This document shows, piece by piece, positions 21,102-62,882 of a stretch of 64,000 bases of DNA; positions within the stretch are counted from its first letter, which is position 1, and every line of letters starts with the position of its first letter. The notes beneath the pieces are model-generated. The model was not told where the DNA came from and did no database searches. It saw only the letters and a program-made list of their open reading frames with translations. The translations under genes and the position numbers were made by a program. This DNA is from Candidatus Moraniibacteriota bacterium (GTDB taxonomy: Bacteria; Patescibacteriota; Minisyncoccia; Moranbacterales; GWC2-37-73), in NCBI GenBank assembly GCA_003507445.1, contig DNVR01000004.1, forward strand, positions 28,243 to 92,242. Direction: 5' to 3'.

Positions 21102-21175
21102 GTGTCATTCCCTTGAAAAAGGGAATCTAGGTCCGCATTTAAACCTGGATTCCCGCCTCCGCGGGAATGACAAAG
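21102..21175. repeat. GC-rich nested-hairpin element (gtcattccc...gggaatgac family)
   Basis: tgtcattcccttgaaaaagggaat ... attcccgcctccgcgggaatgaca. The outer termini pair and two internal hairpins are present. Related copies are at 24138-24178, 32893-32985 and 62792-62882. Confidence 0.55.
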
Positions 21176-21180
21176 TGGAA

Positions 21181-22677
21181 ATGATTAAATTGATTCAGTA
21201 TAAAAAAATGATATCAAAAACAAAAATAATCACACTAATAATTTTTTTCTCATTCCTGATAACGCCACTAACCGAGGTGCGCGCTTCTCTTTCTGATGAC
21301 GCCAATGCTTATGAAAAATATCCGCTATACAGCAAATATGAAAAAAAACAAAAATACGACAAATACAAAAAATTCCTGAAAGCCAAAGAGCAATCAGGTC
21401 TCGACACTGAAGCCAAAAGAGTTCAAGCCAAGGATGGCTATGCCAAATATAAACTTTATTTAAAAGACAAAGCAAAAAACAGAGCCTACGCAGTCTATCT
21501 TTCCCAATATAATGCCTACAAAAAATATAAAAAATATTCTGATTACAAGAAATATAAAAAATACAAGAAATACAACAAGAAAGAATACGACAAATACAAA
21601 AAATACGGTTCCCAAAGTTATAAGGACGGATACAATCGATACAAAGTTTTTATGGCTGACATTGATAATGTTACTACCAACCGAGGCCCAGAAATTAAAG
21701 TAGGGCTTTGGAGTTCAAATACGACCGATCTTGCTGCCAATCCGTTCAAAATAACAGCCAACAAAGCTTTCCGCGTAACAAATTGCGCAGGAACCGTTGT
21801 TGCTCCTTCAATTGCAATCGGACAAAATGTCAGAGTTTCATATGCAGGAGATGGAATCTTAAATGCATACAATTCAGATCCTTTGATTTTGGCCAACGCT
21901 AATGTTGGGGATAAAATTTGTTTTGATGCAGTTGACGGAAACAATTTGGATATGATTTTTGATGTTAACAGACCGCTTCTTTATGATGGCGATTCAGGAT
22001 CAGGATATGATCAATATAGAGGCAAGATTAAAATTCAGCACAGTCTTGATCCTAATCTTCCAAATGATGGAAATGCAAATTGCAGTTTGTATCAAGATGC
22101 AACTTTCCCAGCTTGGGATCCGGAAAATGCTTGCCGACGAGTTTGGGTAATCAACGAATTGCCACTGGAATTGTATTTATGGGGTTATGGAGAAATGAGC
22201 ACCGGTGGAATTGAGCATTTGGCAAAAACAATGATGGTCGCCGCTCGCTCATATGCTCGTTGGTGGGTTGAATATGCCACCAAGTGGGATATGGCTGGTT
22301 TCGATTTGATTGCCAGCCCTGTTAATCAAATTTACAACGGATATGACTATGAACTGACACATTCATTCATTCCAGATGCAGCGCAAAAAACCAATGGAAT
22401 TATAATGAAATATGGCAGCGACATTGTTTTGGGTGCATATTGCAGCAACACCGACGGTCGAACCAAAAGCGCGCTAGAAGCTTGGGGACTTTCAAATCAT
22501 CCATATTTGCAATCAGTAGCAGATCCATATGGCGCAATTTCCAACCCTAGCGCTGGCAATCATATGGTTGGACTTTCAGCCAACGGAGCAAGAGTTCTTG
22601 CCAGCGATCATTCTTGGCAATGGACCCGCATCCTCAGCTACTACTATTCCGGTATAAACATCGTCAAAGAATACTAA
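21181..22677 (+). CDS. SpoIID/LytB-domain protein with Lys/Tyr-rich N-terminal low-complexity region
   Basis: Signal peptide, then KY-rich repeats (YKKYKKYSDYKKYKKYKKYNKKEYDKYKKY). The C-terminal domain carries LELYLWGYGEMSTGGIEHLAKTMMVAARSYA and GNHMVGLSANGARVLAS...ILSYYYSG, matching SpoIID signatures. The track start 21097 translates the upstream repeat element; I chose ATG 21181, with 21208 as an alternative. Confidence 0.7.
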   Translation: MIKLIQYKKMISKTKIITLIIFFSFLITPLTEVRASLSDDANAYEKYPLYSKYEKKQKYDKYKKFLKAKEQSGLDTEAKRVQAKDGYAKYKLYLKDKAKNRAYAVYLSQYNAYKKYKKYSDYKKYKKYKKYNKKEYDKYKKYGSQSYKDGYNRYKVFMADIDNVTTNRGPEIKVGLWSSNTTDLAANPFKITANKAFRVTNCAGTVVAPSIAIGQNVRVSYAGDGILNAYNSDPLILANANVGDKICFDAVDGNNLDMIFDVNRPLLYDGDSGSGYDQYRGKIKIQHSLDPNLPNDGNANCSLYQDATFPAWDPENACRRVWVINELPLELYLWGYGEMSTGGIEHLAKTMMVAARSYARWWVEYATKWDMAGFDLIASPVNQIYNGYDYELTHSFIPDAAQKTNGIIMKYGSDIVLGAYCSNTDGRTKSALEAWGLSNHPYLQSVADPYGAISNPSAGNHMVGLSANGARVLASDHSWQWTRILSYYYSGINIVKEY

Positions 22678-22719
22678 TTTCATATAATTCGCAACATACA
22701 ACCAACAACTCACAACATA

Positions 22720-22797
22720 CAACATATAACATATAGCATATAACATACAAAAAAACGAGATTGTTTTTAGTTGGTATTTCTGTTATATGCTATATGC
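22720..22797. repeat. AT-rich inverted-repeat element (same family as 16814-16900)
   Basis: 16-bp perfect arms catatagcatataaca (22730-22745) and tgttatatgctatatg (22781-22796), with a 35-nt spacer. It is preceded by an acaacatacaac-type simple repeat. Confidence 0.5.
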
Positions 22798-22800
22798 TCC

Positions 22801-23403
22801 ATGAAAATTATGTCTCTTCCCCCTAAAGCCCCTCTTATCATCTTCGGTCTGGCTATTGTCATTCTTTCTGTTTTGGCGTTTCCTGTTTTGAAATCTCGCT
22901 ATTTTTCTGCTGAGCAAAAAAATGAGGCCAATGAAATTATCTCAGAAGAAACAACGACTCCTGAATCTCTTGACGAAACAAGCGAAGCTGAATTTGAAGA
23001 TGATGAAACAATTGATCTTGAAGAAGAAGACGAAACTGACGATATTTCAGATGATCTTGAAGACGAAGATATTGACGAAGAAGACTTGGATGACACACTC
23101 ATCATTGAAGATAACAGTTTTTTGGAAATTTTATCCTCCGATTGCAAAAATGGTTGCAAGGATTTTGAAGAAGCCGAAGACATTCAATATTGCAAACAAT
23201 ATTGTGGTCTTGTCAGCACGCCGAAAACATCCGACGGCTGCAACAAATTTGAAGACTTGGAAAGAGACTATTGTTTCAAAGAAGAAGCGATTGAAAAAAG
23301 AGACGGTAAAATCTGCAACGAAATCCAGGATGATGGCATCAAAAAATCCTGCTTCAATCGCATTACCGAAGACATCCTAGACGCACCACAATCAGCAGAG
23401 TAA
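22801..23403 (+). CDS. membrane-anchored acidic protein with Cys-rich C-terminal domain (hypothetical)
   Basis: One TM helix (LIIFGLAIVILSVLAF), a D/E-rich linker, and a C-terminus with 8 Cys. The start was moved to ATG 22801 because 22771-22800 is the repeat arm. Confidence 0.45.
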   Translation: MKIMSLPPKAPLIIFGLAIVILSVLAFPVLKSRYFSAEQKNEANEIISEETTTPESLDETSEAEFEDDETIDLEEEDETDDISDDLEDEDIDEEDLDDTLIIEDNSFLEILSSDCKNGCKDFEEAEDIQYCKQYCGLVSTPKTSDGCNKFEDLERDYCFKEEAIEKRDGKICNEIQDDGIKKSCFNRITEDILDAPQSAE

Positions 23404-23451
23404 GGCATACAAAATCTTGCTTTTCTTTTATCTGTAAGTTAAAGTTAATCA

Positions 23452-24135
23452 ATGGAAACAATTTCAAAAAAAATTTTCGTCCTTATCCCCGCTTTCAATG
23501 AAGAAACGGTTATTCGCGAAGTGATAACTGAAATCAGAAAGGCTGGATATGAAAATATTATTGTTGTTGACGATGGCAGCGCAGACAACACGCAAATTGC
23601 AGCCCAAAAAGAAATTGGCGTGATTTCACTGCGCCATTCCATCAATCGAGGCAAAGGAGCTGCAGTCAAAACAGGCATCGAGGCTGCCAAAATGCTTGGG
23701 GCTGACATTGTGGTTACTATTGACGGCGACGGACAACATAATCCTGATGATATTGCAAAAATGCTAGAGCTCATTGAGCAAGGAAACGATGTGGTGCTCG
23801 GATCGCGACTCAAAAATCCAAAAGGAATGCCTCTTTGGAAAATCGCTGCCAATCATTTCGGTAATTTTTGCACTTGGGCTATTTATGGACTCTGGGTCAC
23901 AGATAGTCAATCCGGTTTTCGCGCTTATTCCAAAAAAGCACTTGAATTAATAGATACCAAAACTGATCGCTACGAATATGACAGCGAAGTCATTAGAGAA
24001 ATTTATAGAAACAAGCTAAAGTTTATTGAAACACCTATTGAGGTTCGATACACAGAATATTCAATGAATAAAGTTCATAAAATGAATCTGAAAAACGGAT
24101 TCAAAACCTTGATCAAGATGATGATATCCGGATAA
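23452..24135 (+). CDS. GT2 glycosyltransferase, DPM1-like (soluble form)
   Basis: 227 aa with IFVLIPAFNEE, VVDDGSAD and TIDGDGQH (DXD). It has no C-terminal TM helices. Confidence 0.75.
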   Translation: METISKKIFVLIPAFNEETVIREVITEIRKAGYENIIVVDDGSADNTQIAAQKEIGVISLRHSINRGKGAAVKTGIEAAKMLGADIVVTIDGDGQHNPDDIAKMLELIEQGNDVVLGSRLKNPKGMPLWKIAANHFGNFCTWAIYGLWVTDSQSGFRAYSKKALELIDTKTDRYEYDSEVIREIYRNKLKFIETPIEVRYTEYSMNKVHKMNLKNGFKTLIKMMISG

Positions 24136-24137
24136 AT

Positions 24138-24178
24138 CCCCCACTTGTCATTCCCGCGGAGGCGGGAATCCAGACCTG
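24138..24178. repeat. truncated copy of GC-rich element (reverse orientation of 21102-21175 right half)
   Basis: tgtcattcccgcggaggcgggaatccag is identical to the reverse complement of 21147-21174. Confidence 0.5.
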
Positions 24179-24236
24179 TATTAAATTTAATAAACTTTAT
24201 AACTTTACAACTTTAAACTTTATAACTTCTACCTAT

Positions 24237-24593
24237 ATGGAACTAGTTTTTTTCTTCAGAATTGCAATGACCGCTGTGGCTTGCGGCTTTTTGTTTAACG
24301 CTTGGTTAAAATTTATCCGCCGCGAAAATTCTCAGACCATTTTCAAGCTTTTTGCCAACAATTTAATTTGGATCGGAATTATTGTTTTTTCACTTTTTCC
24401 ACAAGCAACTCATAACATCTCTCAAAAACTCGGTTTCGGGGAGAGCCTCAACACATTTATATTTATCGGTTTTGTTGTTGTTTTTATGATTATTTTTAAA
24501 ATAATCACAATGATTGAACGCATTGAAAAAAACATCTCAGAAATGGTTCGGAACGAAAGTTTAAACCCAATCAAAAACAATCAACCAAAATGA
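24237..24593 (+). CDS. DUF2304-like small membrane protein
   Basis: 118 aa with 3-4 TM helices, located immediately downstream of a DPM1-like GT2. This is the characteristic context for DUF2304. Confidence 0.5.
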   Translation: MELVFFFRIAMTAVACGFLFNAWLKFIRRENSQTIFKLFANNLIWIGIIVFSLFPQATHNISQKLGFGESLNTFIFIGFVVVFMIIFKIITMIERIEKNISEMVRNESLNPIKNNQPK

Positions 24594-25645
24594 CTAGCGA
24601 AAACAACCAGCGAATTGCGGTTTTGATTTTGGGATATAATGATGAAAACAATCTTATTGAAGCTATTGATTCATCCCTAAATCAAACTTACGAAAATTTC
24701 AATGTTATATACATCGACAACGCATCCACCGATGCGTCTTTGTCTATTGTGAAAAAAAATTATCCCAATCTTGAAACAATTGCGTACGAAAAAAATCTGG
24801 GCTATGCCGGCGCTTATGCGAAAGTTTTAAAAGAAACGTTTAAAAAAAATTATGACGCCGCCGTGCTCCTTAACTCAGATGTTATTGTGGACAAAAATTG
24901 GCTCAAGGAGCTTGTCGCCTCGGCCTATGTCAGCGAAGAAATTGCCATCGCTCAACCAAAAATATTTTTGGCCGGCGAAAACAAAGACTTGGCCAACACT
25001 TTTGGAAATAAGATAAATTATCTCGGTTTTGGTTTTTGCGGACACTACAAAAAAACAGACAGCGATGAATTTAACAACGACCAAGAAATTGTTTCTGCCA
25101 GCGGTGCCAGTTTGCTTGTCAAAAAAGAAGCGTATGAAAAAATCGGGGGCTTGGATGAAAAATTCTTTGCATATCTTGAAGATCAAGATCTTTCTTGGCG
25201 CGCGCAAATGTTGGGATATAAAATTATGCTTTCTGCCAAATCAAAAATGTGGCACAAATATGTCTTTGCCAAAAACGCCCGCAATAATTGGAAATTTTTC
25301 ACTTTAGAGCGAAATCGACTCTATTTTCTGTTCAAAAATTATTCCGCCAAAACTCTGTTTTTGCTTGCCCCAATGTTTTTCGTGATGGAAATCGGGATTT
25401 TGGCTGATTCCCTCTCCAAGGGCTATTTCTTTGATAAAATTCGGTCCTACAAGGCTTTTTTATCCAATTTTGGTCAAATATACCGGTCTCGCCAAATCGT
25501 TCAGCAATGCCGCCAATTGCCCGACAGTGAGCTTTTCAAGAAGCTTAATCCAACAGTAGAATTTGAAGAAATAAACTCCCCCGCCCTTCGTCTAGCAAAC
25601 ATATTATTAAAAACATATTACAATTTAATCAAACCATTTATTTAA
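24590..25645 (+). CDS. GT2 glycosyltransferase (rhamnosyl/galactofuranosyl-transferase-like)
   Basis: 351 aa with IAVLILGYNDENN, YIDNASTD and LEDQDL (DXD-like). A 4-nt ATGA overlap with the upstream gene indicates translational coupling. Confidence 0.7.
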   Translation: MTSENNQRIAVLILGYNDENNLIEAIDSSLNQTYENFNVIYIDNASTDASLSIVKKNYPNLETIAYEKNLGYAGAYAKVLKETFKKNYDAAVLLNSDVIVDKNWLKELVASAYVSEEIAIAQPKIFLAGENKDLANTFGNKINYLGFGFCGHYKKTDSDEFNNDQEIVSASGASLLVKKEAYEKIGGLDEKFFAYLEDQDLSWRAQMLGYKIMLSAKSKMWHKYVFAKNARNNWKFFTLERNRLYFLFKNYSAKTLFLLAPMFFVMEIGILADSLSKGYFFDKIRSYKAFLSNFGQIYRSRQIVQQCRQLPDSELFKKLNPTVEFEEINSPALRLANILLKTYYNLIKPFI

Positions 25646-25712
25646 TAAATTATTCATTAAATCATTAGGATTTGATTAAAAATTTAAAATTTAAAATTTA
25701 AAATTACCTATT

Positions 25713-26090
25713 ATGTTCTACGTCATCCTCTACACCATCTTATTTTCACTTGTCACGGTCATTTCAATTTTACTGACCGGTTCACGCTCTTTCATCAGCG
25801 GTTCCAATTTAACTCCAATGGCAATTATCAAAATGCTTTTTGATTGGCATTTTCTTTTGGGAGCCACTTTCGCTTTTGCAGCAAGATTATTTTTTATTAT
25901 GATCAACAACAGCCTACTCAAAATTCCAGACCTTGCAGGCAGTTCAACCACAGTCACAACCTTCATCACATCAATTGCAATGGTTTTTGTTATAATCGCC
26001 AATTATTACTTTTTAGGCGAAAAAATAAACACTACCCAAGGCGTGGGAGTGTTTGTAATTTTGTTTGGAATTTTTCTAATAACTCGCTAA
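25713..26090 (+). CDS. small 4-TM SMR/EamA-like membrane protein (ArnE/GtrA-type flippase candidate)
   Basis: 125 aa with four hydrophobic segments. Its size and context match lipid-linked sugar flippase subunits. Confidence 0.45.
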   Translation: MFYVILYTILFSLVTVISILLTGSRSFISGSNLTPMAIIKMLFDWHFLLGATFAFAARLFFIMINNSLLKIPDLAGSSTTVTTFITSIAMVFVIIANYYFLGEKINTTQGVGVFVILFGIFLITR

Positions 26091-27415: not shown

Positions 27416-27443
27416 GATTATTTCAAATTAATTAAATAAAACA

Positions 27444-32070: not shown

Positions 32071-32166
32071 ACTCAAATTCCCGTCCCCATCCATATATTA
32101 ATTAAAGGATGTGATAATGTTTTAACTCAAAAGAGACATTCCTGCCGAGAACGGTCCTCGGCAAGT
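32071..32166. repeat. composite repeat copy A (AT palindrome catccatatattaattaaaggatg + GC hairpin ccgagaacggtcctcgg)
   Basis: It shares both modules, and the linker ttttaactcaaaagRgacattcct, with copies at 32691-32856 and 33204-33293. Confidence 0.5.
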
Positions 32167-32173
32167 TTACCCA

Positions 32174-32222: not shown

Positions 32223-32645
32223 TTATTGAGTTGCGAAAGTTGCTTTTTCCAATTTAAATATCCGCTTTTCATGTTTATCTATAACCTCTTTCTCAGCTTT
32301 ATTATCAAGTTTTTCTTTTATTTCCTTAACATCACTCTGTGTATCTTTTATGTCGATTTTCATTTCAACGATATTTGCTTTAACATAATCCATATCTTCA
32401 ATCAAAAAATTAACATTCTCTTCAACACCACCAAGTCTAATATCAAATCTTTCAAATTTTTCTTTCAAATCAGAAACTTCCGATTTAACTTCATTCAATC
32501 CTCTTTTTACATCATCCAACCCCTCGCCAAAAACCTTAAAATCTCCTCGAATTTCTTCAAGAATTGCAACGACTTGATCCTTTGGCATTGAATCTTTTTT
32601 TGTTTCTTGTTTTTTTCCCATAAATTTATTATAACATCGAGCCAA
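32223..32645 (-). CDS. coiled-coil protein (paralog of 31512..31907), hypothetical
   Basis: The track start 32645 is TTG. ATG at 32621 (MGKKQETKK) is favoured because a TTGACG-16-TATAAT promoter ends 6 nt upstream, giving a leaderless mRNA. It shares the RFD..RL.GVE motif with its paralog. Confidence 0.5.
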   Translation of the reverse strand: MARCYNKFMGKKQETKKDSMPKDQVVAILEEIRGDFKVFGEGLDDVKRGLNEVKSEVSDLKEKFERFDIRLGGVEENVNFLIEDMDYVKANIVEMKIDIKDTQSDVKEIKEKLDNKAEKEVIDKHEKRIFKLEKATFATQ

Positions 32646-32655: not shown

Positions 32656-32690
32656 ATACTTCCACCTACGCTCTACCTACAATAAAACCA

Positions 32691-32856
32691 CGTCCATATA
32701 TTAATTAATTGATGTGAGGTATTTTTAATTAACCATTCCTGCCGAGTACGGTCCTTGGTGAGAATCCACATATGCGGCGCCACTAGCTGACGACCGCACA
32801 GAAGTGGCGCCAAATAGATTATGTGTGCCTAGACTGCCGAGGACCGTCCTCGGTGG
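32691..32856. repeat. composite repeat copy B (AT palindrome + two GC hairpins + extra GGCGCCACT...AGTGGCGCC hairpin)
   Basis: cgtccatatattaattaattgatgtg; ccattcctgccgagtacggtccttgg; gactgccgaggaccgtcctcgg. Confidence 0.5.
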
Positions 32857-32892
32857 ATTAATCTTATCGAATTAACTGAAATAGCAGTACAT

Positions 32893-32985
32893 TGTCATCC
32901 TCAGCTTGCCGTGCCCGCCTATGGAGGGACTGGGGATCCAGAGTGATGCCTGGCCATGGATTCCCTTTTTCAAGGGAATGACAAA
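32893..32985. repeat. GC-rich nested-hairpin element (gtcat...gggaatgac family)
   Basis: tgtcatcctcagcttgccgtgcccgcctatggagggactggggatccagagtgatgcctggccatggattccctttttcaagggaatgacaaa. It is about 90% identical to 62792-62882, and its 3' hairpin equals the reverse complement of 21104-21126. Confidence 0.55.
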
Positions 32986-33203
32986 CTACTATAGATTCAG
33001 TTATTTTGGTATTATTAAAATCATTTAGTGTCAACTTCGCTGTACATCATTATTGTATTCAGTGTCAAGTATAATTTACACTGATTTTTATTTGCAGTAT
33101 ATTACCCTGTCTTAGCTCTTTTTTCATCTTTTTTATTGTTTTCCATTTTTATTATTTATGATGATATTATATCACTTCTTTATTTTATTAACAAGATAAA
33201 CAA

Positions 33204-33293
33204 AACACATCCATATATTAATTAATGGATGTGTTTTGTTTTAATTCATTTTAACTCAAAAGGGACATTCCTACCGAGGACCGTCCTCGGTGG
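33204..33293. repeat. composite repeat copy C (11-bp-arm palindrome aacacatccat...atggatgtgtt + GC hairpin ccgaggaccgtcctcgg)
   Basis: The hairpin ends 4 nt before the stop of minus-strand gene 33295..34449. Confidence 0.5.
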
Positions 33294-33294
33294 T

Positions 33295-34449
33295 TTACTC
33301 CTTATTAATAACTTTTTCCAAAAGATTGATTGAATGATTCCAAGTCCAATTTTTTACTGTCTTATAGCCACCTTCAATTAATTTATTCTTCAATTCCCTA
33401 TCATTTATCAACTGCTGGATGGCTTTTTTTGCACCCTCCACATCCCCCTGTTCAACAACGAGTGCATTTTCACCGTCAACAATATATTCGTCATAGCCAG
33501 TCACTTTTCCAACCACCACAGCACAGCCACAAGCCATTGCTTCCATAGGTGGACCAAAAAATCCTTCAATTCTACTCATCTTAAGAAAAATATCGCAAGA
33601 TGAATAAATTTCATTCATTTTATCAAATGGTACGTTTTCAAAAAACTTATCGTATTTCCAATTACTTTTAGGTTTTCCATTGTTACTCACAATCCAAAGT
33701 TCGCAGTCCAAATCCTTTACTGCATTATATGCATCTTCCATACCCTTGTATGGAACATCTATTGAGCCTTCAAGTAAAATTCTAGGCTTTTCTGTTTTAA
33801 CTATTAATGGCTTTGTTTTATAAAACAAATTTTCATCCAATCCATTGGGAACATAATAAGATTCTTTACCACAATCATTTTTTAACCATTTCTGAATCCA
33901 AAGTGCTTCAGTCATATACTCCAAGGGAAGTGAATATGTTTTCTTTATAATACTGCAAAGATCTTCATTATCTGAAAAAAATCTGCTCTCATCTGATTGC
34001 ACAAAATATATTTTTCTTCTTGTTTGAGCCATATCAACAGTAAATGCAGTGCTATATGCAGTTGCAATCAAAATATCAATCTCGCCACTTTTTAATATTT
34101 CTTTTGTTTTATTAAATGGCAAAATTTCAATTTCTTGATCAGGAAACCAACTTGCATCATTTTTATTTGTGAGAGAAAGAATTTTTACATCATATCCCCT
34201 CTTTTTTAATCTATTTGCGTGTTGAAAAATTACCGCAATACCTCCAGAAATTTTTACACCAGGAACAAGATAATAAATTTTCTGCTCTTTACCAGTTTTA
34301 TTTTTAACAGTATTAATAATGGATTTTCTGTTCTCATTAAATTTTTTCCATCTAGAATATTCTCCATCAAAAAAGAAACGGGTTTTAATTGTTTTGCTAT
34401 TTATATATAAATAGCACTTTTTAAAAAATAATATTGAAAATGAATCCAT
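33295..34449 (-). CDS. GT4-family glycosyltransferase
   Basis: 384 aa. The C-terminal domain IEGFFGPPMEAMACGCAVVVG is the GT4 E-x7-E region. Confidence 0.65.
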   Translation of the reverse strand: MDSFSILFFKKCYLYINSKTIKTRFFFDGEYSRWKKFNENRKSIINTVKNKTGKEQKIYYLVPGVKISGGIAVIFQHANRLKKRGYDVKILSLTNKNDASWFPDQEIEILPFNKTKEILKSGEIDILIATAYSTAFTVDMAQTRRKIYFVQSDESRFFSDNEDLCSIIKKTYSLPLEYMTEALWIQKWLKNDCGKESYYVPNGLDENLFYKTKPLIVKTEKPRILLEGSIDVPYKGMEDAYNAVKDLDCELWIVSNNGKPKSNWKYDKFFENVPFDKMNEIYSSCDIFLKMSRIEGFFGPPMEAMACGCAVVVGKVTGYDEYIVDGENALVVEQGDVEGAKKAIQQLINDRELKNKLIEGGYKTVKNWTWNHSINLLEKVINKE

Positions 34450-54828: not shown

Positions 54829-55422
54829 TCATATAACAAAAAACAGCACTTTGCAATCCGAGGCAAAGAAAAAAGGAAGAACGAAAATTCGTTCTCCCTT
54901 GTATTTACTCTCCAAAAATACCCTGCTTACTACCTTCGCGGCACCTCCTCGATGATGATTTTTTTTATGTTTTTTTTGTATTTCTTCGTTGGCATCATCA
55001 CGAACAGAAATGGCTTCAAGAATTCGAGATCTGCCAGAAGAACTCATGCTCCACAAAGAAATTCGAAGTGCATTCAGTTCAACTTTTTTACCGTCCTTGA
55101 AAATCTCCTTGAGTAGTAGTATGAACTCCTCCAGTGATTCTTTCAATATCTCCATATCGATTTTTGGATCTGATATGGAAATTTTCTCAACAAGTAGTTG
55201 AAGCAGCTCTTTGAGATTTTGAATCTTTGGCGAATCCTGTACCCTATTGATCTTATTTTGATCTGTCAGGGATGAAGGAAATGCATCGGGGTTGAATTTG
55301 TACGAATTAACATCGCCTGTTTGCGGTGCAAACCCTTTTTCTCCCGGCACTAAACCCTGAGCACTACGAAGCGTTAAATCCTCTCTTGTTGACAAGTGAA
55401 CGTTCTGATTTGGCACTGACAT
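54829..55422 (-). CDS. hypothetical protein (GC-richer than window average)
   Basis: 197 aa with no recognisable domain. It is about 40% GC by eye versus about 31% for its surroundings. Confidence 0.35.
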   Translation of the reverse strand: MSVPNQNVHLSTREDLTLRSAQGLVPGEKGFAPQTGDVNSYKFNPDAFPSSLTDQNKINRVQDSPKIQNLKELLQLLVEKISISDPKIDMEILKESLEEFILLLKEIFKDGKKVELNALRISLWSMSSSGRSRILEAISVRDDANEEIQKKHKKNHHRGGAAKVVSRVFLESKYKGERIFVLPFFFASDCKVLFFVI

Positions 55423-55590
55423 TGCTTTTCTCCTTTTTTCAGTTTATTTTTCTGCAATTCTGCAGAGTTCTTGGCAGATTTCTTGTTGTTAAAACTACCA
55501 ACTTACCATCCCTTTTTATACAGCATTTTCAAGAACCTGTCAATAGCAAAAAAGGCAGGTTGAATAATTCAAACAAAAACAATTCTTGTC

Positions 55591-55989
55591 TTATTTGTTT
55601 TTCTTCAATTTTCGGGAAGTCAAAATTATTTGAACAAGGCTAATGATGACGAAGAGTGCTGAAGAGAAAAATGCTACGGTTCCCTTTTCAATTGGGAAAA
55701 TGAAATTATGCGAATATGAAGGTGATATCAAAATTACCAGCATTGAAAGCGGAACCCAGATGCGAGCAAAACGCCACCAGGATTGGAAAATTTTATCCTG
55801 CATTGGGTATGTGATGAGAGAGAAGATAAAAAGAGTAATTGTTGGGAAAAAAACAAATGCCACTGAATCGTCATGCGATCTGCTGCAGATTAAATTTATC
55901 AAACAAAGACCTTTCACTGAAATAGTTATCGCAACACTAAAAATTATTGCCCCGCAAACACTAAGAAATAATACTCTTTTTTTTGTCAT
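55591..55989 (-). CDS. small membrane protein (3-4 TM), hypothetical
   Basis: 132 aa and hydrophobic, located immediately downstream of the giant secreted protein gene. Confidence 0.4.
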   Translation of the reverse strand: MTKKRVLFLSVCGAIIFSVAITISVKGLCLINLICSRSHDDSVAFVFFPTITLFIFSLITYPMQDKIFQSWWRFARIWVPLSMLVILISPSYSHNFIFPIEKGTVAFFSSALFVIISLVQIILTSRKLKKNK

Positions 55990-56014
55990 ATATTTATATC
56001 AATATTTATTAAAG

Positions 56015-59000: not shown

Positions 59001-59563
59001 GGTGCTTCCTGTGCTTTGGCAGTTTGAACAAAAGATTTAAAAATATTGAAAGATGTTACACTGGAACAAATTTCAATATCCTCATAATCATACGACCCCA
59101 TATTCTCAATTTTCACATAATTAAAAATTGAGGATTCATTACCTTCATAAAATGACTCGTCGTAAAAACCCACCACTCCACGTGGAGCTGAGGTACAAAA
59201 TTCATAATACATTTTTTCATTTTCAGAATATTGGGAATAATCAGGATTAGCTTTCGTAAATATAATCGGCTCATCTTTGGTTCCTTGAGCCACAATTCTT
59301 CCATACAAGACTTCCAAATCCAAAATCTCCACGCGTGTACCTTTTTCAATCGTAACAGTAGCGCCATCAACAATCACAACTGGTTTCCATATATCATTAT
59401 ATGTAACAGTTCCTCGCCAAGTCACATCTTCATTAATAACAATATAGTTGTCATAATCATCCCAAATATTATCCTCCGAAATTGGAAAATTAGCACTAGC
59501 ACATCTTGGGAAAAAAGCTGAAACAACCAGCACAACAAAAACATACTGTAATATTTTTATCAT
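56015..59563 (-). CDS. giant secreted protein with alpha/beta-hydrolase (lipase/LCAT/PGAP1-like GxSxG) domain and beta-rich flanking domains
   Basis: 1182 aa with a signal peptide MIKILQYVFVVLVVSAFFPRCASA. The central VTIVAHSNGGLVAKAL is a nucleophile elbow (AHSxGG). Long beta-rich N-terminal and C-terminal regions flank it. Confidence 0.6.
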   Translation of the reverse strand: MIKILQYVFVVLVVSAFFPRCASANFPISEDNIWDDYDNYIVINEDVTWRGTVTYNDIWKPVVIVDGATVTIEKGTRVEILDLEVLYGRIVAQGTKDEPIIFTKANPDYSQYSENEKMYYEFCTSAPRGVVGFYDESFYEGNESSIFNYVKIENMGSYDYEDIEICSSVTSFNIFKSFVQTAKAQEAPRIIRENPAVEFGSGKVRIENSDFLNNKYADVVVGNYYYENNRGDLIEIVSSNFEGNLQNTALISSSSRYDINTKEYIHNKNIAKLENNWYGNSVGPRQKPNYDIGGEIIKGDYVLNGFSPSKFGVDYASNVLFLPGLKASRLYAKDDPSCLLVNCENQLWEPNRNADVEKLFLNKEGESTDEYDIYTRDVLDETNILPVGQINYYKSFIAKMNDLKNKDKMINDWIAAPYDWRLSLNDVLTSGKKDGDNISYNKETDSPYTISELRRLASSSKTGKVTIVAHSNGGLVAKALMQKLGSEEAKNLVDKIIFVAVPQVGTPAAIAALLHGEKQNLFPVLSTKTARSLGENMPGAYNLLPSNEYFSKVQTPVVKFNTGLLSDLKDNYSGEINSNEGLMDFLRDDFRKVLAVNSDVDIPARSNVNLLENSKNTHNSLDSWNVPEGVKVIQIAGWGVPATLSGIDYSVEKTRYCDAGSCFSGADVLDPDFKFTIDGDGTVVTPSALWMSGVEKYWFDLDSYNIFLLRNAEHANILEIPELNSFIADNIGNKAKPISDYEYFSSEVPSASDEKRLQYSLHSPLSFELCDNDNEENCTGINPDGEIKEQIPGTYFKQFGDVKYIFTNENISSKIKMKGYDTGTFTFAVEEFRGDESLGKVTFKDMPVTPETKVTFNVADDLQSASNLEIDEDGNGTIDFDLKPKIGEIVTLDQSPPVTTSSIEGTHGNNDWYISDVKISLSAKDNDEGSGLEKTEFSLDDGKTWKVYSDSITLTAEGVFEIQYFSTDKQGNTEEAQKVAVKIDKTAPEAKLIFNAKTQELDVIGSDNLSQNVSVEIKEQIVFIDNKQSSKKNKFWNWGWLQKKKEKKIIDTATLTDEAGHKTEIVWEKKKDKSRRIDLSLSSISYDGNKTEISNGNLQYKWLQDWRRKKFLLFASHLSTESMSLESHYFPNKNQTWFMEKPNEIGDDDRDDNADRRPVWKKMTGMIIPSILTEKGIIKINY

Positions 59564-59608
59564 ATTTGTTTATTTAAATATATTATTATTAATTTTATTG
59601 ATATTATA

Positions 59609-59652
59609 CCAACAAACAAAAAGTTCGTAAAGTTATAAACCTTACGAACTTT
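59609..59652 (-). terminator. rho-independent terminator for wzm
   Basis: Plus strand reads aagttcgtaaag ttataaac cttacgaactt (12/11-bp stem). On the minus strand it is followed by TTTTTGTTTGTT, 25 nt after the wzm stop. Confidence 0.6.
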
Positions 59653-59675
59653 TTAACTTTCGACTTTTGACTGTT

Positions 59676-60452
59676 TTAGATTTCTTCCGCAACCTTGGGA
59701 ATAAATTTTCGATATGAAAATATGCTTAGGGCGAAAGCGCCAAAAACGATGGCGATGAACACGGTGTATTGCGAAAGGCTGGCGAAATGATTGTTGATGA
59801 GTGATTCCTTGGTAAAGTGAATAATAAATGCCAAGGGATTAAGTAGAATAAATTTATGATATGCTGCCGGCAAAGTTACTAAGGGATAAATAATCGGCGA
59901 CGCGTACAAAATTATCATCAATAAAACTTCCCAAATCATCGCCAGGTCGCGAAATTTAACATACAGCGGTGCAGTGATGAGTGAAAAAGAAAGAACGATA
60001 ATATATATGAAAACAGAAAACATTAAAAACAAAAGAACTGCTGGAATGCTCGGCATGAAACCTTTAAGCGCAAAGAAAAAAACAATCACAACAAGGTTCA
60101 TCAAAAATATCAAAGTTGCATTAATTGTAGAAGCAATAATAATCGTCCAACGTGGCACATAAATTTTGGTCACAAGTTGAGCTTTTGATAAAAGTGAACT
60201 CATTCCTGCTGTCGTTCCTTCAGAGAAAAAATAAAACATCATAAGCGCAACCAACAACTGCAACGAATATGTGCTCATTCCGGTTCCACGAGGATTAAAC
60301 ATTGAAGAAAAAACAAAATTCATCACCGCAAAAGTAAGCAATGGCTTGAGCAGCGCCCACAAATATCCCAAAACACTTCCGTGATAACGAAGTTTAAAAT
60401 CAGTTTTCGCTAAAGCCCAAATCAGCTCCTTATAATTTTCGTGTTGTTTCAT
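59676..60452 (-). CDS. wzm: ABC-2 type polysaccharide/teichoic-acid export permease (Wzm/TagG-like)
   Basis: 258 aa with 6 TM helices. The N-terminus ELIWALAKTDFKLRYHGSVLGYLWALLKPLL is the canonical ABC-2 permease start. Confidence 0.8.
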   Translation of the reverse strand: MKQHENYKELIWALAKTDFKLRYHGSVLGYLWALLKPLLTFAVMNFVFSSMFNPRGTGMSTYSLQLLVALMMFYFFSEGTTAGMSSLLSKAQLVTKIYVPRWTIIIASTINATLIFLMNLVVIVFFFALKGFMPSIPAVLLFLMFSVFIYIIVLSFSLITAPLYVKFRDLAMIWEVLLMIILYASPIIYPLVTLPAAYHKFILLNPLAFIIHFTKESLINNHFASLSQYTVFIAIVFGAFALSIFSYRKFIPKVAEEI

Positions 60453-60503
60453 ATGATGTATGTATTTTACTTTATAAACTTTATGAACTTGTAACTTTAT
60501 AAC

Positions 60504-61460
60504 TTAATAAAGATTTTTGTTTTCTTGATACCAAGCGATAAATCGCTCCATCCCTTCTTCAATTTTTACTTTTGGATCATAGCCGAGAAGTTTTCGGGAT
60601 TTTGTGAGGTCAGCGTTGGTAATTAAAACATCTCCTGGTTGCATTGGATATTCCTTAATGTTAGCCTTTTTGCCAAGAATTTTTTCTACTGTGGAGATAA
60701 AATAACTAAGATCAACGGTGTTAGAATTTCCAAGGTTAAAAATTTCATATCCAAAAATCTTATCGACTGCAGCCACTACCCCATCAACCAAATCATCAAT
60801 AAAAGTATAATCTCTTCGAGTTGAACCATCCCCAAAACGCTTAACCTCAAAGCCTTCGTCAATCAATTTTGTGGCTAAAAATGGAAACATATCAGGCCGT
60901 CCACCGGGCCCGTAGACCGTAAAGGGACGTACGACATTTACGTTGAGGTCATATAAATGGTGGTATGTGTACCCTAGAAGCTCTGTGGCCTTCTTGGTGG
61001 CTGCATAGGGTGAAATGGGACAATCTACCACCTCATTTTCGGAAAATGGCACTTTTGAAGAGTTTCCATACACCGAAGACGAACTGAATAACACAAAATT
61101 TTCAATCTTAAATTCCTTAGCTAAATGCAAAAGATTAAGCGTGCCTTTCACATTTGTGTCTTCATATATGAAAGGATTTTCAATGCTTGGACGCACTCCA
61201 GCTCTGGCTGCTGCATGCACGACTCGCTGGATATTTTCTTTTTCAAAAACAGATTTTAAAAATTCATAGTCCGTGATACTTCCACGATATAATGAATAAT
61301 TTGGATTATCTGCAAATTGAGCAACATTAAGCTCTTTTATTTTTGGAGAATAATAATCATTAAATTCATCGACGCAGACAACAGAGTCTCCGCGCTCTAA
61401 TAATTTTTTTGTAACATTGCTGCCAATAAAGCCAGCGCCACCAGTAACTAGAATTCGCAT
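60504..61460 (-). CDS. UDP-glucuronate 4-epimerase-like NAD-dependent epimerase (extended SDR)
   Basis: 318 aa with MRILVTGGAGFIGSN and SPYAATKKATE (YxxxK). Overall it resembles Cap1J/WbpP/GalE-type epimerases, and ugd is in the same window. Confidence 0.7.
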   Translation of the reverse strand: MRILVTGGAGFIGSNVTKKLLERGDSVVCVDEFNDYYSPKIKELNVAQFADNPNYSLYRGSITDYEFLKSVFEKENIQRVVHAAARAGVRPSIENPFIYEDTNVKGTLNLLHLAKEFKIENFVLFSSSSVYGNSSKVPFSENEVVDCPISPYAATKKATELLGYTYHHLYDLNVNVVRPFTVYGPGGRPDMFPFLATKLIDEGFEVKRFGDGSTRRDYTFIDDLVDGVVAAVDKIFGYEIFNLGNSNTVDLSYFISTVEKILGKKANIKEYPMQPGDVLITNADLTKSRKLLGYDPKVKIEEGMERFIAWYQENKNLY

Positions 61461-61579
61461 ACTGCAATTTTAAATTTTAAATTTGAAATTTTAAATCAAT
61501 TTTTAAATTCTAAATAAATAATTTTTAAACATTTTTTATTCAGATTTCATTTCAAATTTTAAATTTAGCCTTTAAAATT

Positions 61580-62776
61580 TTAATCCTTCTTTTGTAACTT
61601 GGATCTTAAATAATCATAATATTCCTCACTATGACTATTTTTTGTTGTGTAATCACACAAGGCTTTTTCGCGGGCTTTTTCCCCCATTGATTTTCGCAGC
61701 TCTGAATTTTCAATTAACGTGGAAAGTTTTTCTATCCACTCTTCTTTGTGATCAGCTAGAAAACCATTCTCTCCATCATTAATTGCTCCAGAAAAAGTTT
61801 GGTTACGTAAGGCAACCACTGGAACTTCCAAGAGTCCCGCTTCAGAGAATTTCAATTCTGATTTTCCAACACTAAATTCATCTTTCTCTAGAGGCGCCAA
61901 AATAATATCGCAATAAAAAATATTTTCAAAATGTTTTTTTCGAGGAACAAAGGTGCAACGAATAATTCTTCTGGCAAATTTTGCAAATTTTTCTTCCAAT
62001 TCCAGGGGTCCAGCTAAAAATATTTCAACTTGTGGATATTTTTCCAAAATTTCAACCAAAGCATCGGAAATCGTGGCAAAATCTTTATTATGTCCAATAG
62101 TGCCGCTAAAATATCCAATACGAATTTTACTTCTTTGGTTTTTTTCCTGTCTGTTATTTTGCAAAAGATGATCTGCGATATCTAGCCACTGATTGGAAAG
62201 CTTATTAGTTGTAACAAAAACTTTTTTTCCATATTCTTCCAGCTTTGAAGCTATAAATTTTGTGCTAGTTGTACAAACCTTCACATACGAGTCCATCAAA
62301 ATTTCTTCTCCAATGCCTTTTTTATATTGTTTCTTTTCAAAAAAAGACATGTTTTTATAATGATCAGTTTGATGTACATATTTTATATCAAAAACCATAT
62401 CATCGGTATCAAAAATAATTTCCTTCTGCTGCTTTTTTATATTTTTGATTAATTTAGCAATTGCCGATGTATGCAGCGTACGGCTAAAAATAAAAATTTT
62501 AAATTTTTTGTAAAAACTTGGAAGAAACGGATTGTCCTGCATAGTGACAGATACATTAAAACCGTGCGTTCGGAGCTCCTCGGCTTGATTGTGCGCACGA
62601 TAAAGAGCGCTATCACCCACCCCAGCAGTAATAAAAAGAATATCACCAGATTTAACACTGAGAATATTTTTTATATATGCCTGAAGAAAATCCAAAATTC
62701 TTTTTCCACCTCTCAATATTCCATCCCGCTGAATTGTTTTAAAAGCTTTTCCAGCTTTAATAAGTAATAATTTCAT
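61580..62776 (-). CDS. GT4-family glycosyltransferase
   Basis: 398 aa. The C-terminal EKDEFSVGKSELKFSEAGLLEVPVVA resembles the GT4 E-x7-E region. Confidence 0.6.
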   Translation of the reverse strand: MKLLLIKAGKAFKTIQRDGILRGGKRILDFLQAYIKNILSVKSGDILFITAGVGDSALYRAHNQAEELRTHGFNVSVTMQDNPFLPSFYKKFKIFIFSRTLHTSAIAKLIKNIKKQQKEIIFDTDDMVFDIKYVHQTDHYKNMSFFEKKQYKKGIGEEILMDSYVKVCTTSTKFIASKLEEYGKKVFVTTNKLSNQWLDIADHLLQNNRQEKNQRSKIRIGYFSGTIGHNKDFATISDALVEILEKYPQVEIFLAGPLELEEKFAKFARRIIRCTFVPRKKHFENIFYCDIILAPLEKDEFSVGKSELKFSEAGLLEVPVVALRNQTFSGAINDGENGFLADHKEEWIEKLSTLIENSELRKSMGEKAREKALCDYTTKNSHSEEYYDYLRSKLQKKD

Positions 62777-62791
62777 ATAACTTTGTATTTT

Positions 62792-62882
62792 ATCATCCTC
62801 AGCTTGCCGTGCCCGCCTCTGGAGGGACTGAGGATCCAGAGTGGTGCCTAGCCCTGGATTCCCGTTTTCACGGGAATGACAT
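62792..62882. repeat. GC-rich nested-hairpin element (near-identical to 32893-32985)
   Basis: atcatcctcagcttgccgtgcccgcctctggagggactgaggatccagagtggtgcctagccctggattcccgttttcacgggaatgacat, located between two GT4 genes. Confidence 0.55.

What the first reader, a model, noticed from the sequence alone, without database searches (positions are those of the whole stretch)
21102..62882. Family of ~75-95-nt GC-rich nested-hairpin intergenic elements with gtcat(t)cc...gggaatgac termini (4 copies)
Copies at 21102-21175, 24138-24178 (truncated, opposite orientation), 32893-32985 and 62792-62882 are islands of about 60% GC in intergenic DNA that is about 30% GC. They share the terminal inverted repeat and internal hairpins attcccgcctccgcgggaat and gtcattcccttgaaaaagggaat. 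Copies 3 and 4 are about 90% identical. Three copies sit directly next to glycosyltransferase gene starts or stops. One was translated as a spurious N-terminal extension in the ORF track (21097). They may be REP/MITE-like selfish elements, transcript stabilisers or insulators, or a small ribozyme/RNA family. The 13378-13496 element, with atgtcattctgagcg termini and a 36-bp GGGCCC-centred palindrome, may be a distant relative.
Basis: seen in the sequence. Interest (0 to 1): 0.55.

Follow-up and report, generated by a model that had tools for sequence, protein, structure and literature searches.

The report
Ssn-type DNA hairpin repeats in Moranbacteria
The GC-rich intergenic hairpin elements are real. 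They are gene-less inverted pairs of the dRS3/NTS hairpin repeat that small GIY-YIG "Ssn" single-strand DNA nucleases recognise, found here as lineage-specific insertions in a candidate-phyla (Moranbacteria) genome, so they are a new member of a recently described family and not a new kind of element.

Summary
ATTCCC-N8-GGGAAT occurs 5 times in the window against 0.01 expected, always as GTC-ATTCCC..GGGAAT-C. The modules form three inverted doublets with the GTC ends outward, plus one singlet.

The core equals the Neisseria dRS3 pattern. Two arms are 2 mismatches from the 28-nt NTS that the SsnA GIY-YIG ssDNA nuclease binds and cuts (Chenal 2025). Both positions critical for SsnA, the 5' GTC and the 3' C, are kept in all five canonical modules.

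The same 24-mers and the same doublet layout occur in many phyla. In other genomes the same arms bracket ~100-aa GIY-YIG genes, so the window copies look like gene-less, MITE-like derivatives.

They are insertions. 690 kb of related Moranbacteria-like loci hold no dRS3 match. A close relative (L308) has an empty site at copy 1. The whole ~105-nt copy-1 unit recurs in an unrelated gene context (L165).

No ssn gene, transposase or known RNA family lies in the window or in the 16 kb beside it. Whether this genome encodes an Ssn is unresolved. The 13378-13496 element is a decayed doublet of a second Ssn-linked hairpin type.

Verdict: real, a new member of a known kind, of moderate interest.

The parts
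21094..21198 (+). Copy 1, complete inserted unit: 10-nt head TCCGTGTTGT, hairpin doublet and tail AAAGTGGAAATGATTAAATTGATTCAG. It lies between an intrinsic terminator (21057-21089) and the probable true start codon, ATG 21208.
   Evidence: Absent from the orthologous site in L308, whose flanks are 89-91% identical. The same unit, head and tail included, occurs in L165 in an unrelated gene context.
21103..21130 (+). Arm 1L: TGTCATTCCCTTGAAAAAGGGAATCTAG, a hairpin module with 5' GTC and 3' C.
   Evidence: The identical 24-mer occurs in many phyla.
21145..21172 (-). Arm 1R: TGTCATTCCCGCGGAGGCGGGAATCCAG, 2 mismatches from the 28-nt NTS consensus.
   Evidence: (I10). NTS consensus from PMC11893778.
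21089..21093 (.). TATAA directly left of the copy-1 unit. It is repeated at 21199-21203 directly to the right, so it is a candidate target-site duplication.
   Evidence: L165 has ATAA on both sides. Inconclusive, because the target is AT-rich and the right-hand TATAA may belong to the element.
24146..24173 (+). Copy 2: a single hairpin module identical to arm 1R, starting 10 nt after the GT2 stop codon (24135).
   Evidence: Absent from the same intergenic spacer in seven relatives.
32887..32988 (+). Copy 3, a doublet of the second subfamily.
   Evidence: (D3).
32894..32941 (+). Arm 3L: long-loop variant GTCATCCTCAG-[25 nt]-CTGGGGATCCAG, with one stem mismatch.
   Evidence: Long-loop variants also occur in other candidate-phyla loci (L202, L187, L165).
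32956..32983 (-). Arm 3R: TGTCATTCCCTTGAAAAAGGGAATCCAT.
62785..62886 (+). Copy 4, a doublet 92% identical to copy 3 over 89 nt. It lies between two co-directional glycosyltransferase genes on the minus strand, where relatives carry a DUF4012 gene or other DNA.
62792..62839 (+). Arm 4L: long-loop variant whose 5' GTC has mutated to ATC.
62854..62881 (-). Arm 4R: TGTCATTCCCGTGAAAACGGGAATCCAG. It is the only module that matches the published degenerate SRM pattern exactly.
   Evidence: (1 match against 0.03 expected).
13378..13496 (+). Decayed doublet of a second Ssn-linked hairpin type. Left arm: GTCATTCTGAGCGTAGAGAATC. Right arm, reverse-complemented: GTCATCTTGAGCGGAATTGA. The arms flank a 36-nt imperfect palindrome at 13422-13457.

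Best explanation
The elements are copies of the pan-bacterial 'Ssn-related motif' hairpin repeat, the same family as Neisseria dRS3/NTS.

Each module is 5'-GTC-[ATTCCC + 2 bp]-loop-[2 bp + GGGAAT]-C(Y)AG-3'. On single-stranded DNA it folds into a hairpin. In Neisseria and Wolbachia the sequence-specific stem and the oriented flanks are bound by small single-domain GIY-YIG nucleases (Ssn), which cut the strand a few nucleotides 5' of the hairpin.

In the window the modules are arranged as inverted pairs with the GTC (cleavage) ends outward and a short variable spacer. This is the layout that brackets ssn genes in other genomes, with the gene missing. I therefore read them as non-autonomous, MITE-like derivatives of hairpin-ssn-hairpin cassettes, or as empty landing sites for such cassettes, that entered intergenic DNA of this Moranbacteria lineage.

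Shown: family identity, the doublet architecture and its generality, lineage-specific presence, one empty site, and recurrence of a whole unit in another genome.

Inferred: that an Ssn-type nuclease encoded elsewhere in this genome, or supplied in the past, recognises them; that nicking of the extruded hairpins during replication or DNA uptake drives their spread or recombination; and any effect on neighbouring genes.
For: - Core motif: it equals the published dRS3 pattern ATTCCC(N8)GGGAAT. It occurs 5 times against 0.01 expected.
- Match to NTS: arms 1R and 2 differ from the 28-nt NTS CGTCATTCCCGCGMAVGCGGGAATCYRG at 2 positions, one in the loop and one at the first base. Arm 4R matches the published degenerate SRM pattern.
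- Critical positions: the C after the palindrome (binding) and the 3 nt before it (cleavage) matter most for SsnA. Both are conserved in all 5 canonical modules.
- Stem covariation: among 205 instances, the two stem-extension pairs are Watson-Crick in 96-97% with alternative pair types, and the inner four positions are unpaired.
- Doublet layout: 64 of 126 seed hairpins have an inverted partner within 120 nt downstream (median spacer 26.5 nt). Only 7 of 123 show the opposite arrangement.
- Link to ssn genes: the same arms bracket ~100-aa PF01541 GIY-YIG ORFs in L122, L053, L244 and L008, and the second hairpin type does so in L419.
- Insertion: there are 0 dRS3 matches in 690 kb of related loci against 5 in the window. 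L308 has an empty site at copy 1. The hairpin is absent from the copy-2 spacer in 7 relatives and from the copy-4 site in 4 relatives.
- Recurrence: the 105-nt copy-1 unit is 87-89% identical in L165, whose flanking genes are unrelated. L198, another Moraniibacteriota genome, carries a doublet combining the 4R-type arm with an arm identical to 1R.
Against: - No Ssn-like ORF lies in the window (best E = 16 with an HMM built from 120 homologues) or in the 7.7 kb and 8.8 kb beside it. The cognate nuclease is therefore undemonstrated for this genome.
- Strict membership criteria are only partly met. The paper allowed 1 mismatch to NTS and the best arms have 2. Only 1 of 5 modules matches the hand-made SRM pattern.
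- GIY-YIG nucleases cut but are not known to rejoin DNA, so a transposition mechanism is speculative. The published role of SsnA is restriction of transforming ssDNA, not mobility.
- The copy-1 unit extends 10 nt and ~27 nt beyond the hairpins. This is not explained by a cut a few nt 5' of each hairpin.
- Arm 4L has lost GTC and arm 3L has a stem mismatch, so some arms may be decaying.
Confidence: 0.75

Rival explanations
1. Inert relics. The hairpin doublets arrived by horizontal transfer or a past invasion, this genome has no Ssn partner, and the copies are now neutral, slowly decaying intergenic DNA with no current activity.
For: - No ssn gene in about 80 kb.
- Arm 4L has lost GTC and arm 3L has a stem mismatch.
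- The 13378-13496 element is clearly decayed.
- The closest relatives lack these hairpins altogether.
Against: - Two arms 3 kb apart are 29/29 identical, and copies 3 and 4 are 92% identical. This suggests recent duplication or constraint.
- All five canonical modules keep GTC, an intact 8-bp stem and the 3' C.
- Only about 80 kb of a genome I assume to be roughly 1 Mb (my estimate, not measured) was inspected for ssn.
Confidence: 0.25
2. RNA-level element. The copies are transcribed with neighbouring genes and act as structured RNA: mRNA 3'-end stabilisers like REP in E. coli, or small RNAs like Francisella FtrB.
For: - The copies lie between co-directional genes. Copies 2 and 4 are probably co-transcribed with them.
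- The 115-nt sRNA FtrB, verified by Northern blot, contains a hairpin of this type (probe sequence). It gives the only Rfam similarity: 27.9 bits, E = 0.12.
- The stem covariation cannot tell DNA hairpins from RNA hairpins.
Against: - No Rfam family reaches gathering score.
- Spacers and loops are not conserved.
- The doublets are symmetric, so the oriented GTC...C module is presented on both strands whatever the direction of transcription.
- There is no T-tract for termination.
- SsnA does not bind the RNA form.
- Deletion of FtrB gave no phenotype.
- Closely related genomes do without the elements at the same sites.
Confidence: 0.1
3. REP/REPIN elements mobilised by a RAYT (IS200/IS605-like Y1 tyrosine transposase).
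For: The inverted-doublet architecture with a short spacer is the REPIN layout, and the elements are intergenic and multi-copy.
Against: - The modules start with GTC-AT, not the GTAG/GTGG head of RAYT-associated REPs (from my knowledge of Nunvar 2010 and Ton-Hoang 2012, cited).
- Where a gene lies between such arms it is a GIY-YIG gene, not a Y1 transposase.
- No transposase domain was found in more than 30 window ORFs.
Confidence: 0.04
4. Attachment or target sites for an IS110/Piv-type recombinase or a filamentous phage, as the dRS3 subtype ATTCCCRCCTRCGCGGRAAK is for Nf1/MDA phage in Neisseria.
For: Arm 1R/2, ATTCCCGCCTCCGCGGGAAT, is one mismatch from that subtype.
Against: - No recombinase, prophage or IS lies in or beside the window.
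- This reading explains how hairpins are used as targets but not how they arise or why they come as oriented doublets.
- It is compatible with the main explanation and is not really an alternative to it.
Confidence: 0.05
5. Chance palindromes in GC-poor DNA.
For: None.
Against: - 5 matches against 0.01 expected, with 0 of 100 shuffles reaching 5.
- Identical 24- to 29-mers within the window and in other phyla.
Confidence: 0.01

Closest known systems
NTS / Ssn-related motifs (SRM) and the Ssn GIY-YIG ssDNA nuclease family (Chenal et al., Nat Commun 2025, PMC11893778)
   Same: - The same core, GTCATTCCC-N8-GGGAATC(Y)AG, with a hairpin stem and the oriented flanks that determine SsnA binding and cleavage.
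- Multi-copy and intergenic.
- In other genomes the same arms flank ~100-aa single-domain GIY-YIG genes.
   Different: - The host is a Patescibacteria (Moranbacteria) MAG, a group the paper does not name.
- No ssn gene lies in the 80 kb inspected.
- The best arms have 2 mismatches to NTS, and some arms have AT-rich or 25-nt loops.
- The copies occur as isolated gene-less doublets with extra head and tail sequence and with evidence of insertion. The paper does not describe doublets, MITE-like forms or empty sites.
Neisseria dRS3 repeats and NIME arrays
   Same: An exact match to the 20-bp pattern ATTCCC(N8)GGGAAT. One arm is 1 mismatch from the Nf1-target subtype.
   Different: - Neisseria has about 700 copies, organised in arrays interleaved with RS elements (for example L025, 23 matches in 13.5 kb).
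- Here there are 5 modules in 64 kb, as isolated doublets.
- The genome is 34% GC from an unrelated phylum.
REP/REPIN-RAYT systems and IS200/IS605 'peel and paste' elements
   Same: ssDNA hairpins recognised by a small nuclease, inverted doublets as the replicating unit, and a single gene flanked by the repeats it recognises.
   Different: The associated enzyme class is GIY-YIG, not HUH/Y1. The conserved head is GTC, not GTAG. No covalent-intermediate chemistry that would allow strand transfer is known.
Francisella sRNA FtrB (Rfam RF02748)
   Same: FtrB contains GTCATTCCCGCGTAGGCGGGAATCTC, a hairpin of the same type. Copy 2 gives a weak match.
   Different: The score of 27.9 bits is far below the gathering score of 66. 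The similarity is confined to the hairpin, so this is not a homologous RNA gene.
Classical bacterial MITEs (Correia/NEMIS, RPE, ERIC)
   Same: Short (75-105 nt) intergenic elements with terminal inverted repeats, possible short AT-rich target duplication, insertion next to gene starts and stops, and occasional in-frame extension of ORFs.
   Different: The termini are self-folding hairpins shared across phyla, not the ends of a DDE-transposase IS. The only gene-bearing counterpart seen is a nuclease-only cassette.

Membership tests
dRS3 (Neisseria 20-bp repeat) | Sequence pattern ATTCCC(N8)GGGAAT | tested here: met
   5 exact matches against 0.01 expected. Pattern definition from PMC3898611.
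dRS3 (Neisseria 20-bp repeat) | Organisation in NIME arrays with RS elements, hundreds of copies per genome | tested here: not met
   Isolated doublets and one singlet, 5 modules in 64 kb, and none in the adjacent 16 kb.
NTS (Neisseria Transformation Sequence) | Match to CGTCATTCCCGCGMAVGCGGGAATCYRG with at most 1 mismatch (the paper's search criterion) | tested here: not met
   Mismatches are 2 (arms 1R and 2), 3 (4R), 5 (1L) and 6 (3R).
Ssn-related motif (SRM) | Match to the degenerate pattern HGTCWYN(0-2)YYVSBRHN(0-5)WNVSBRGN(0-2)RNCYNB | tested here: inconclusive
   Only 62854-62881 matches (1 match against 0.03 expected). I traced 1R and 2 by hand and they fail at a G in the loop, a region the paper shows to be dispensable; I did not trace why 1L and 3R fail.
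Ssn-related motif (SRM) | Hairpin with conserved, oriented flanks: 3 nt 5' of the palindrome (GTC) and a C immediately 3' | tested here: met
   All five canonical modules have GTC + stem + loop + stem' + C. ssDNA folding. Stem covariation.
Ssn-related motif (SRM) | An ssn (cd10448-type GIY-YIG, ~95-105 aa) gene in the same genome, often flanked by the motif | tested here: inconclusive
   None in the window or in the 16 kb of flanks. The rest of GCA_003510165.1 could not be read with the scans left. The association was confirmed in other genomes.
Ssn-related motif (SRM) | Binding and cleavage by the cognate Ssn as ssDNA only | not testable with these tools
   Needs a biochemical assay.
REP/REPIN-RAYT | Conserved GTAG/GT[AG]G head 5' of the palindrome | tested here: not met
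   The head is (T)GTC-AT in all modules. The definition of this feature comes from my knowledge of Nunvar 2010 and Ton-Hoang 2012.
REP/REPIN-RAYT | A Y1 transposase (RAYT) gene flanked by the repeats | tested here: not met
   No transposase domain in the window ORFs scanned. Genes bracketed by these arms elsewhere are GIY-YIG genes.
MITE (generic) | Terminal inverted repeats, presence/absence polymorphism and target-site duplication | tested here: inconclusive
   Terminal inverted repeats are present. The empty site in L308 and the recurrence in L165 are shown. TATAA on both sides of copy 1 is only a candidate duplication.
Rfam RF02748 FtrB | Covariance-model score at or above the gathering score of 66 bits | tested here: not met
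   27.9 bits, E = 0.12.

The most novel reading that the evidence does not exclude
Hairpin doublets of this kind are true mobile elements whose spread depends on single-domain GIY-YIG Ssn nucleases. Either they are mobilised in trans as MITEs, or they serve as empty landing sites into which ssn genes home by nick-stimulated repair. That would define a pan-bacterial class of ssDNA-hairpin mobile DNA, reaching the candidate phyla, that uses neither HUH nor DDE chemistry. It would also explain why an identical 24-28-nt sequence is shared by genomes from 29% to 71% GC.
Probability: 0.2. Interest if true: 0.75.

Novelty: new member of a known kind. Interest (0 to 1): 0.4.

Why it matters
The finding places the dRS3/NTS hairpin, long treated as a Neisseria peculiarity and linked to Ssn nucleases only in 2025, in an ultra-small groundwater Patescibacteria genome.

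It adds three things the published description does not cover:
- The canonical unit across phyla is an inverted doublet with the cleavage ends outward.
- Such doublets behave as insertions. There is an empty site in a relative, and an identical unit sits in an unrelated genome.
- The doublets can sit where they create false start codons or replace 5' leader sequences, which matters for annotating MAGs.

If Ssn nucleases do drive this mobility, the elements would be a tractable case for asking how a nuclease-only protein spreads its own recognition sites. Patescibacteria are thought to depend on DNA uptake (background knowledge, not tested here). An Ssn-hairpin system that restricts incoming ssDNA, as in Neisseria, would therefore be biologically relevant there.

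Tried and rejected
- **Rfam.** Gathering threshold on the whole window gave nothing. E-value mode on the copies gave only a sub-threshold FtrB hit on copy 2 and noise.
- **First regexes for GIY-YIG ORFs** were too strict and found nothing useful. I replaced them with phmmer and an HMM. The phmmer seed was an Ssn-like sequence written from memory. It served only as a probe, and all hits were re-validated (PF01541).
- **NCBIfam** has no model for these small GIY-YIG proteins.
- **Finding ssn in the same MAG failed.**
  - The family is too large: 8000 candidates were scored, and the top 120 are all sphingomonads and cyanobacteria.
  - Contig walking is limited to proteins encoded in the window. 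Two look-ups failed on start-codon choice. Two succeeded but added only 16 kb with nothing in it.
- **The GIY-YIG ORF in related locus L277** (11702-11961) is a UPF0213-like subfamily without flanking hairpins, so I did not count it as Ssn.
- **A precise empty site for copy 4** could not be obtained, because relatives carry a different gene (DUF4012) at that position.
- **Copy 3** was not covered by any related locus.
- **Terminator function** was rejected: there is no T-run after the hairpins.
- **Association with glycosyltransferases** was rejected as uninformative, because nearly every gene in the window is a glycan-biosynthesis gene.

Full report
**1. The observation**

All four copies are present at the stated coordinates.
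- The shared core ATTCCC-N8-GGGAAT occurs five times in the window, at 21107, 21149, 24150, 32960 and 62858. The mean in 100 dinucleotide-preserving shuffles is 0.01.
- A repeat search finds 21145-21173 and 24145-24173 to be 29/29 perfect reverse complements. Copies 3 and 4 (32887-32988 and 62785-62886) are 88% identical over 102 nt and 92% over 89 nt.
- GC of the copies is 0.50-0.66, against 0.27-0.38 in the 150-nt flanks and 0.34 for the window.
- As single-stranded DNA, copies 1, 2 and 4 fold much better than shuffles (z = -4.8, -3.4, -2.75). Copy 3 as a whole does not (z = -0.5), although its right arm is a perfect hairpin.

**2. Anatomy**

Every canonical module reads (T)GTC-ATTCCCnn-loop-nnGGGAAT-C(Y)AG.
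- Copies 1, 3 and 4 are inverted pairs of such modules, with the GTC ends outward and a 14-nt spacer. Copy 2 is a single module identical to the right arm of copy 1.
- The left arms of copies 3 and 4 are long-loop variants: GTCATCCTCAG-[25 nt]-CTGRGGATCCAG. Arm 4L has ATC in place of GTC, and arm 3L has one stem mismatch.

**3. Host and context**

Window proteins are identical to HBI33671/33692/33721, annotated 'MAG TPA: Candidatus Moranbacteria bacterium'.
- The assembly is GCA_003510165.1, and the sequence is also found on Rifle groundwater metagenome contigs.
- The lineage is Patescibacteria group > Parcubacteria group > Candidatus Moraniibacteriota.
- Pfam scans of more than 30 ORFs show that the window is almost entirely cell-envelope glycan biosynthesis: GT1/GT2/GT4, PMT, UDP-glucose dehydrogenase, epimerases, flippase and an ABC transporter. 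There is no transposase, recombinase or nuclease.
- Adjacency to glycosyltransferase genes is therefore expected by chance.

**4. What the motif is**

The pattern ATTCCC(N8)GGGAAT is the published definition of the Neisseria dRS3 repeat. Arm 1R/2, ATTCCCGCCTCCGCGGGAAT, is one mismatch from the Nf1-phage target subtype (PMC3898611).

A full-text search for the sequence led to Chenal et al. 2025 (PMC11893778). That paper reports the following.
- About half of dRS3 copies are really a 28-nt oriented element, NTS: CGTCATTCCCGCGMAVGCGGGAATCYRG.
- SsnA, a 94-aa single-domain GIY-YIG protein, binds NTS as ssDNA only, not as dsDNA or RNA. It cuts a few nucleotides 5' of the element.
- The C immediately 3' of the palindrome is most critical for binding. 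The 3 nt 5' of the palindrome are most critical for cleavage. The loop is dispensable.
- NTS-like 'Ssn-related motifs' (SRM) flank ssn homologues across bacteria.

In the window:
- Arms 1R and 2 differ from NTS at 2 positions, 4R at 3, 1L at 5 and 3R at 6.
- Only 4R matches the paper's hand-built degenerate SRM pattern (1 match against 0.03 expected). I traced 1R and 2 by hand: they fail at a single G in the loop. I did not trace why 1L and 3R fail.
- All five modules keep both critical flanks.

**5. Breadth**

It gave 205 instances at locus GC from 0.32 to above 0.7, with CAG or TAG following in most of the listed instances.
Hits include Dehalococcoidia, Desulfobacterota, Nitrospirota, Ignavibacteria, Bacteroidota, Cyanobacteria, Vibrio, Neisseria, Spirochaetota, Verrucomicrobiota and seven Patescibacteria lineages.
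- In the unbiased viral set, loop positions 1-8 and 2-7 are Watson-Crick in 96-97% of instances, with alternative pair types (G-C/A-T and C-G/T-A). Positions 3-6 and 4-5 are unpaired. The hairpin is therefore under selection.

**6. The doublet is the canonical unit**

- Of 126 seed hairpins across phyla, 64 have an inverted partner within 120 nt downstream (median spacer 26.5 nt). Only 7 of 123 have the opposite, GTC-facing arrangement.
- In L122, L053, L244 and L008 the same two arms, in the same orientation, tightly bracket a ~100-aa ORF. In L122 the layout is hairpin 7786-7812(+), ORF 7823-8134, hairpin 8138-8164(-).
- These ORFs are PF01541 'GIY-YIG nuclease family protein'. More than 8000 homologues exist, and sphingomonads, a group the paper lists as SRM-rich, are prominent among the top hits.
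- The window doublets therefore have the architecture of hairpin-ssn-hairpin cassettes without the gene. The paper does not mention doublets, MITE-like forms or intergenic insertion.

**7. Evidence for insertion**

Using the GT2 protein (23452-24135) I fetched 68 related metagenome loci (636 kb, 60-88% amino-acid identity). Using the GT at 61580-62776 I fetched four more. Together they hold no dRS3 match, against 5 in the window, and only a few hairpins of other stem types.

- **Copy 1.** L308 is 89-91% identical on both sides. It reads ...GCAGTTTTTATA|TGTAAAAAAAATAAAAG|ATGATATC..., where the window has about 105 extra nucleotides (21094-21198).
- **Copy 2.** Seven relatives have 6-35 nt, or an unrelated 100 nt, between the GT2 stop and the DUF2304 start.
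- **Copy 4.** Relatives carry a DUF4012 gene or other DNA between the two GT genes, and no hairpin.
- **Recurrence in L165.** L165 (a Kiruna MAG) has no protein similarity to the window's neighbouring genes. It carries the whole copy-1 unit, including the 10-nt head and the tail ending GATTCAGTATAA, at 87-89% identity.
- **Recurrence in L198.** L198 (another Moraniibacteriota MAG) has a doublet that combines a 4R-type arm with an arm identical to 1R.
- **Possible target duplication.** TATAA flanks the copy-1 unit on both sides (21089-93 and 21199-203), and ATAA flanks the L165 unit. This is only a candidate target duplication.
- **Annotation consequence.** The L308 orthologue starts at the ATG equivalent to 21208. 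The ORF starts at 21097 and 21181 therefore lie in the inserted element and are spurious.

**8. What is missing**

- An HMM built from 120 Ssn-like proteins finds nothing in the window (best E = 16). It also finds nothing in the 7.7 kb to the left and 8.8 kb to the right that could be fetched.
- I could not read the rest of the MAG.
- Whether this genome encodes an Ssn is therefore the main open point.

**9. The 13378-13496 element**

- Its termini are decayed versions of GTCATTCTGAGCG(N)AGCGAAGAATC. This second hairpin type occurs in 118 viral-collection loci.
- In L419 that type brackets an Ssn-like GIY-YIG ORF, and it also occurs there as doublets.
- The centre is a 36-nt imperfect palindrome at 13422-13457.

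**10. RNA alternatives**

- No Rfam family reaches its gathering score.
- In E-value mode, copy 2 gives 27.9 bits against RF02748, Francisella FtrB (gathering score 66, E = 0.12). The FtrB Northern probe contains GTCATTCCCGCGTAGGCGGGAATCTC in reverse complement (PMC3091763). FtrB is therefore an sRNA transcribed across a hairpin of this family, which explains the weak hit. Its deletion had no phenotype.
- Copies 3 and 4 have no hits.
- There is no T-tract after the hairpins.
- A secondary RNA-level effect, such as 3'-end stabilisation, cannot be excluded. It is not needed to explain the data.

**11. Mechanism, with shown and inferred steps marked**

*Shown:* family identity, hairpin selection, doublet architecture, linkage of the arms to GIY-YIG genes elsewhere, and lineage-specific insertion.

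*Inferred:*
- When the DNA is single-stranded (lagging-strand template, or DNA taken up or transferred), each arm extrudes and is bound by an Ssn nuclease that nicks just outside the doublet on each strand.
- Nick-stimulated repair or recombination then copies or moves the unit, or copies an ssn gene into a doublet.
- Alternatively, as in Neisseria, the pair acts to restrict incoming ssDNA that carries the motif.
- GIY-YIG enzymes are not known to rejoin DNA, so true transposition is the weakest step.

**12. Verdict**

The feature is real and far beyond chance. The new points are its presence in Patescibacteria, the gene-less doublet form with head and tail, and direct evidence of insertion. 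I rate it a new member of a known kind, with interest 0.4.

Noticed in passing
window 32082-32170, 32685-32760 (+32834-32855), 33202-33295: Three copies of a different composite repeat. It consists of a 28-nt palindrome, CACATCCAT-ATATTAATTA-ATGGATGTG, followed about 15 nt later by TTTTAACTCAAAAGRGACATTCCTRCCGAGGACCGTCCTCGG. The copies flank the small coiled-coil ORF 32223-32645(-) and lie next to hairpin copy 3. There is no Rfam match apart from noise.
   Followed up: partly
window 1475-1511, 24186-24232, 59629-59656; L437 9940-9970; L439 2945-3000; L246 ~10760: AT-rich tandem 7-9-mers (AAAGTTATA / AACTTTATA) lie just upstream of several genes, and are conserved in position in related Moranbacteria loci. 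They may be a promoter-proximal repeat.
   Followed up: no
window 3820-3855, 16804-16899, 22716-22803: Another small intergenic repeat family, CATATAACATATAGCATATAACA, occurs in direct and inverted orientation (D7, D14, I6, I7, I14).
   Followed up: no
window 62777-62915 versus L437 8489-9934 and L439 1514-2944: Relatives carry a DUF4012 gene between the GT4 and GT genes. In the window lineage that gene is missing, and hairpin copy 4 occupies the 140-nt gap. The element may be associated with a deletion or rearrangement.
   Followed up: partly
window 21097-21207: The ORF 21097..22677 (GTG start), and also the ATG at 21181, run through the inserted element. Comparison with L308 puts the real start at ATG 21208.
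   Followed up: yes
L241, L129, L200, L213, L205, L150, L185 (Desulfobacterota and other loci): Hairpin doublets lie nested inside a larger inverted repeat...CGTAAAAAGTC ... GACTTTTTACG.... This suggests a composite palindromic element built around the doublet in those lineages.
   Followed up: no
L438 2209-2264 and 20433-20460; L309 20152-20179; L313 12207-12234; L277 9698-9725: Related Moranbacteria-like genomes carry hairpins of other stem types at other sites: GTCATTCCGGACYYGATCCGGAATC, GTCATCCTGAACTTGATTCAGGATC and GTCATCCCGGGCTTGACCCGGGATCCAG. Different lineages seem to have been colonised by different specificity classes.
   Followed up: partly
L277 11702-11961: A small UPF0213-like GIY-YIG ORF lies in a related locus. 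It has no flanking hairpins and belongs to a different subfamily from the Ssn-like proteins.
   Followed up: partly
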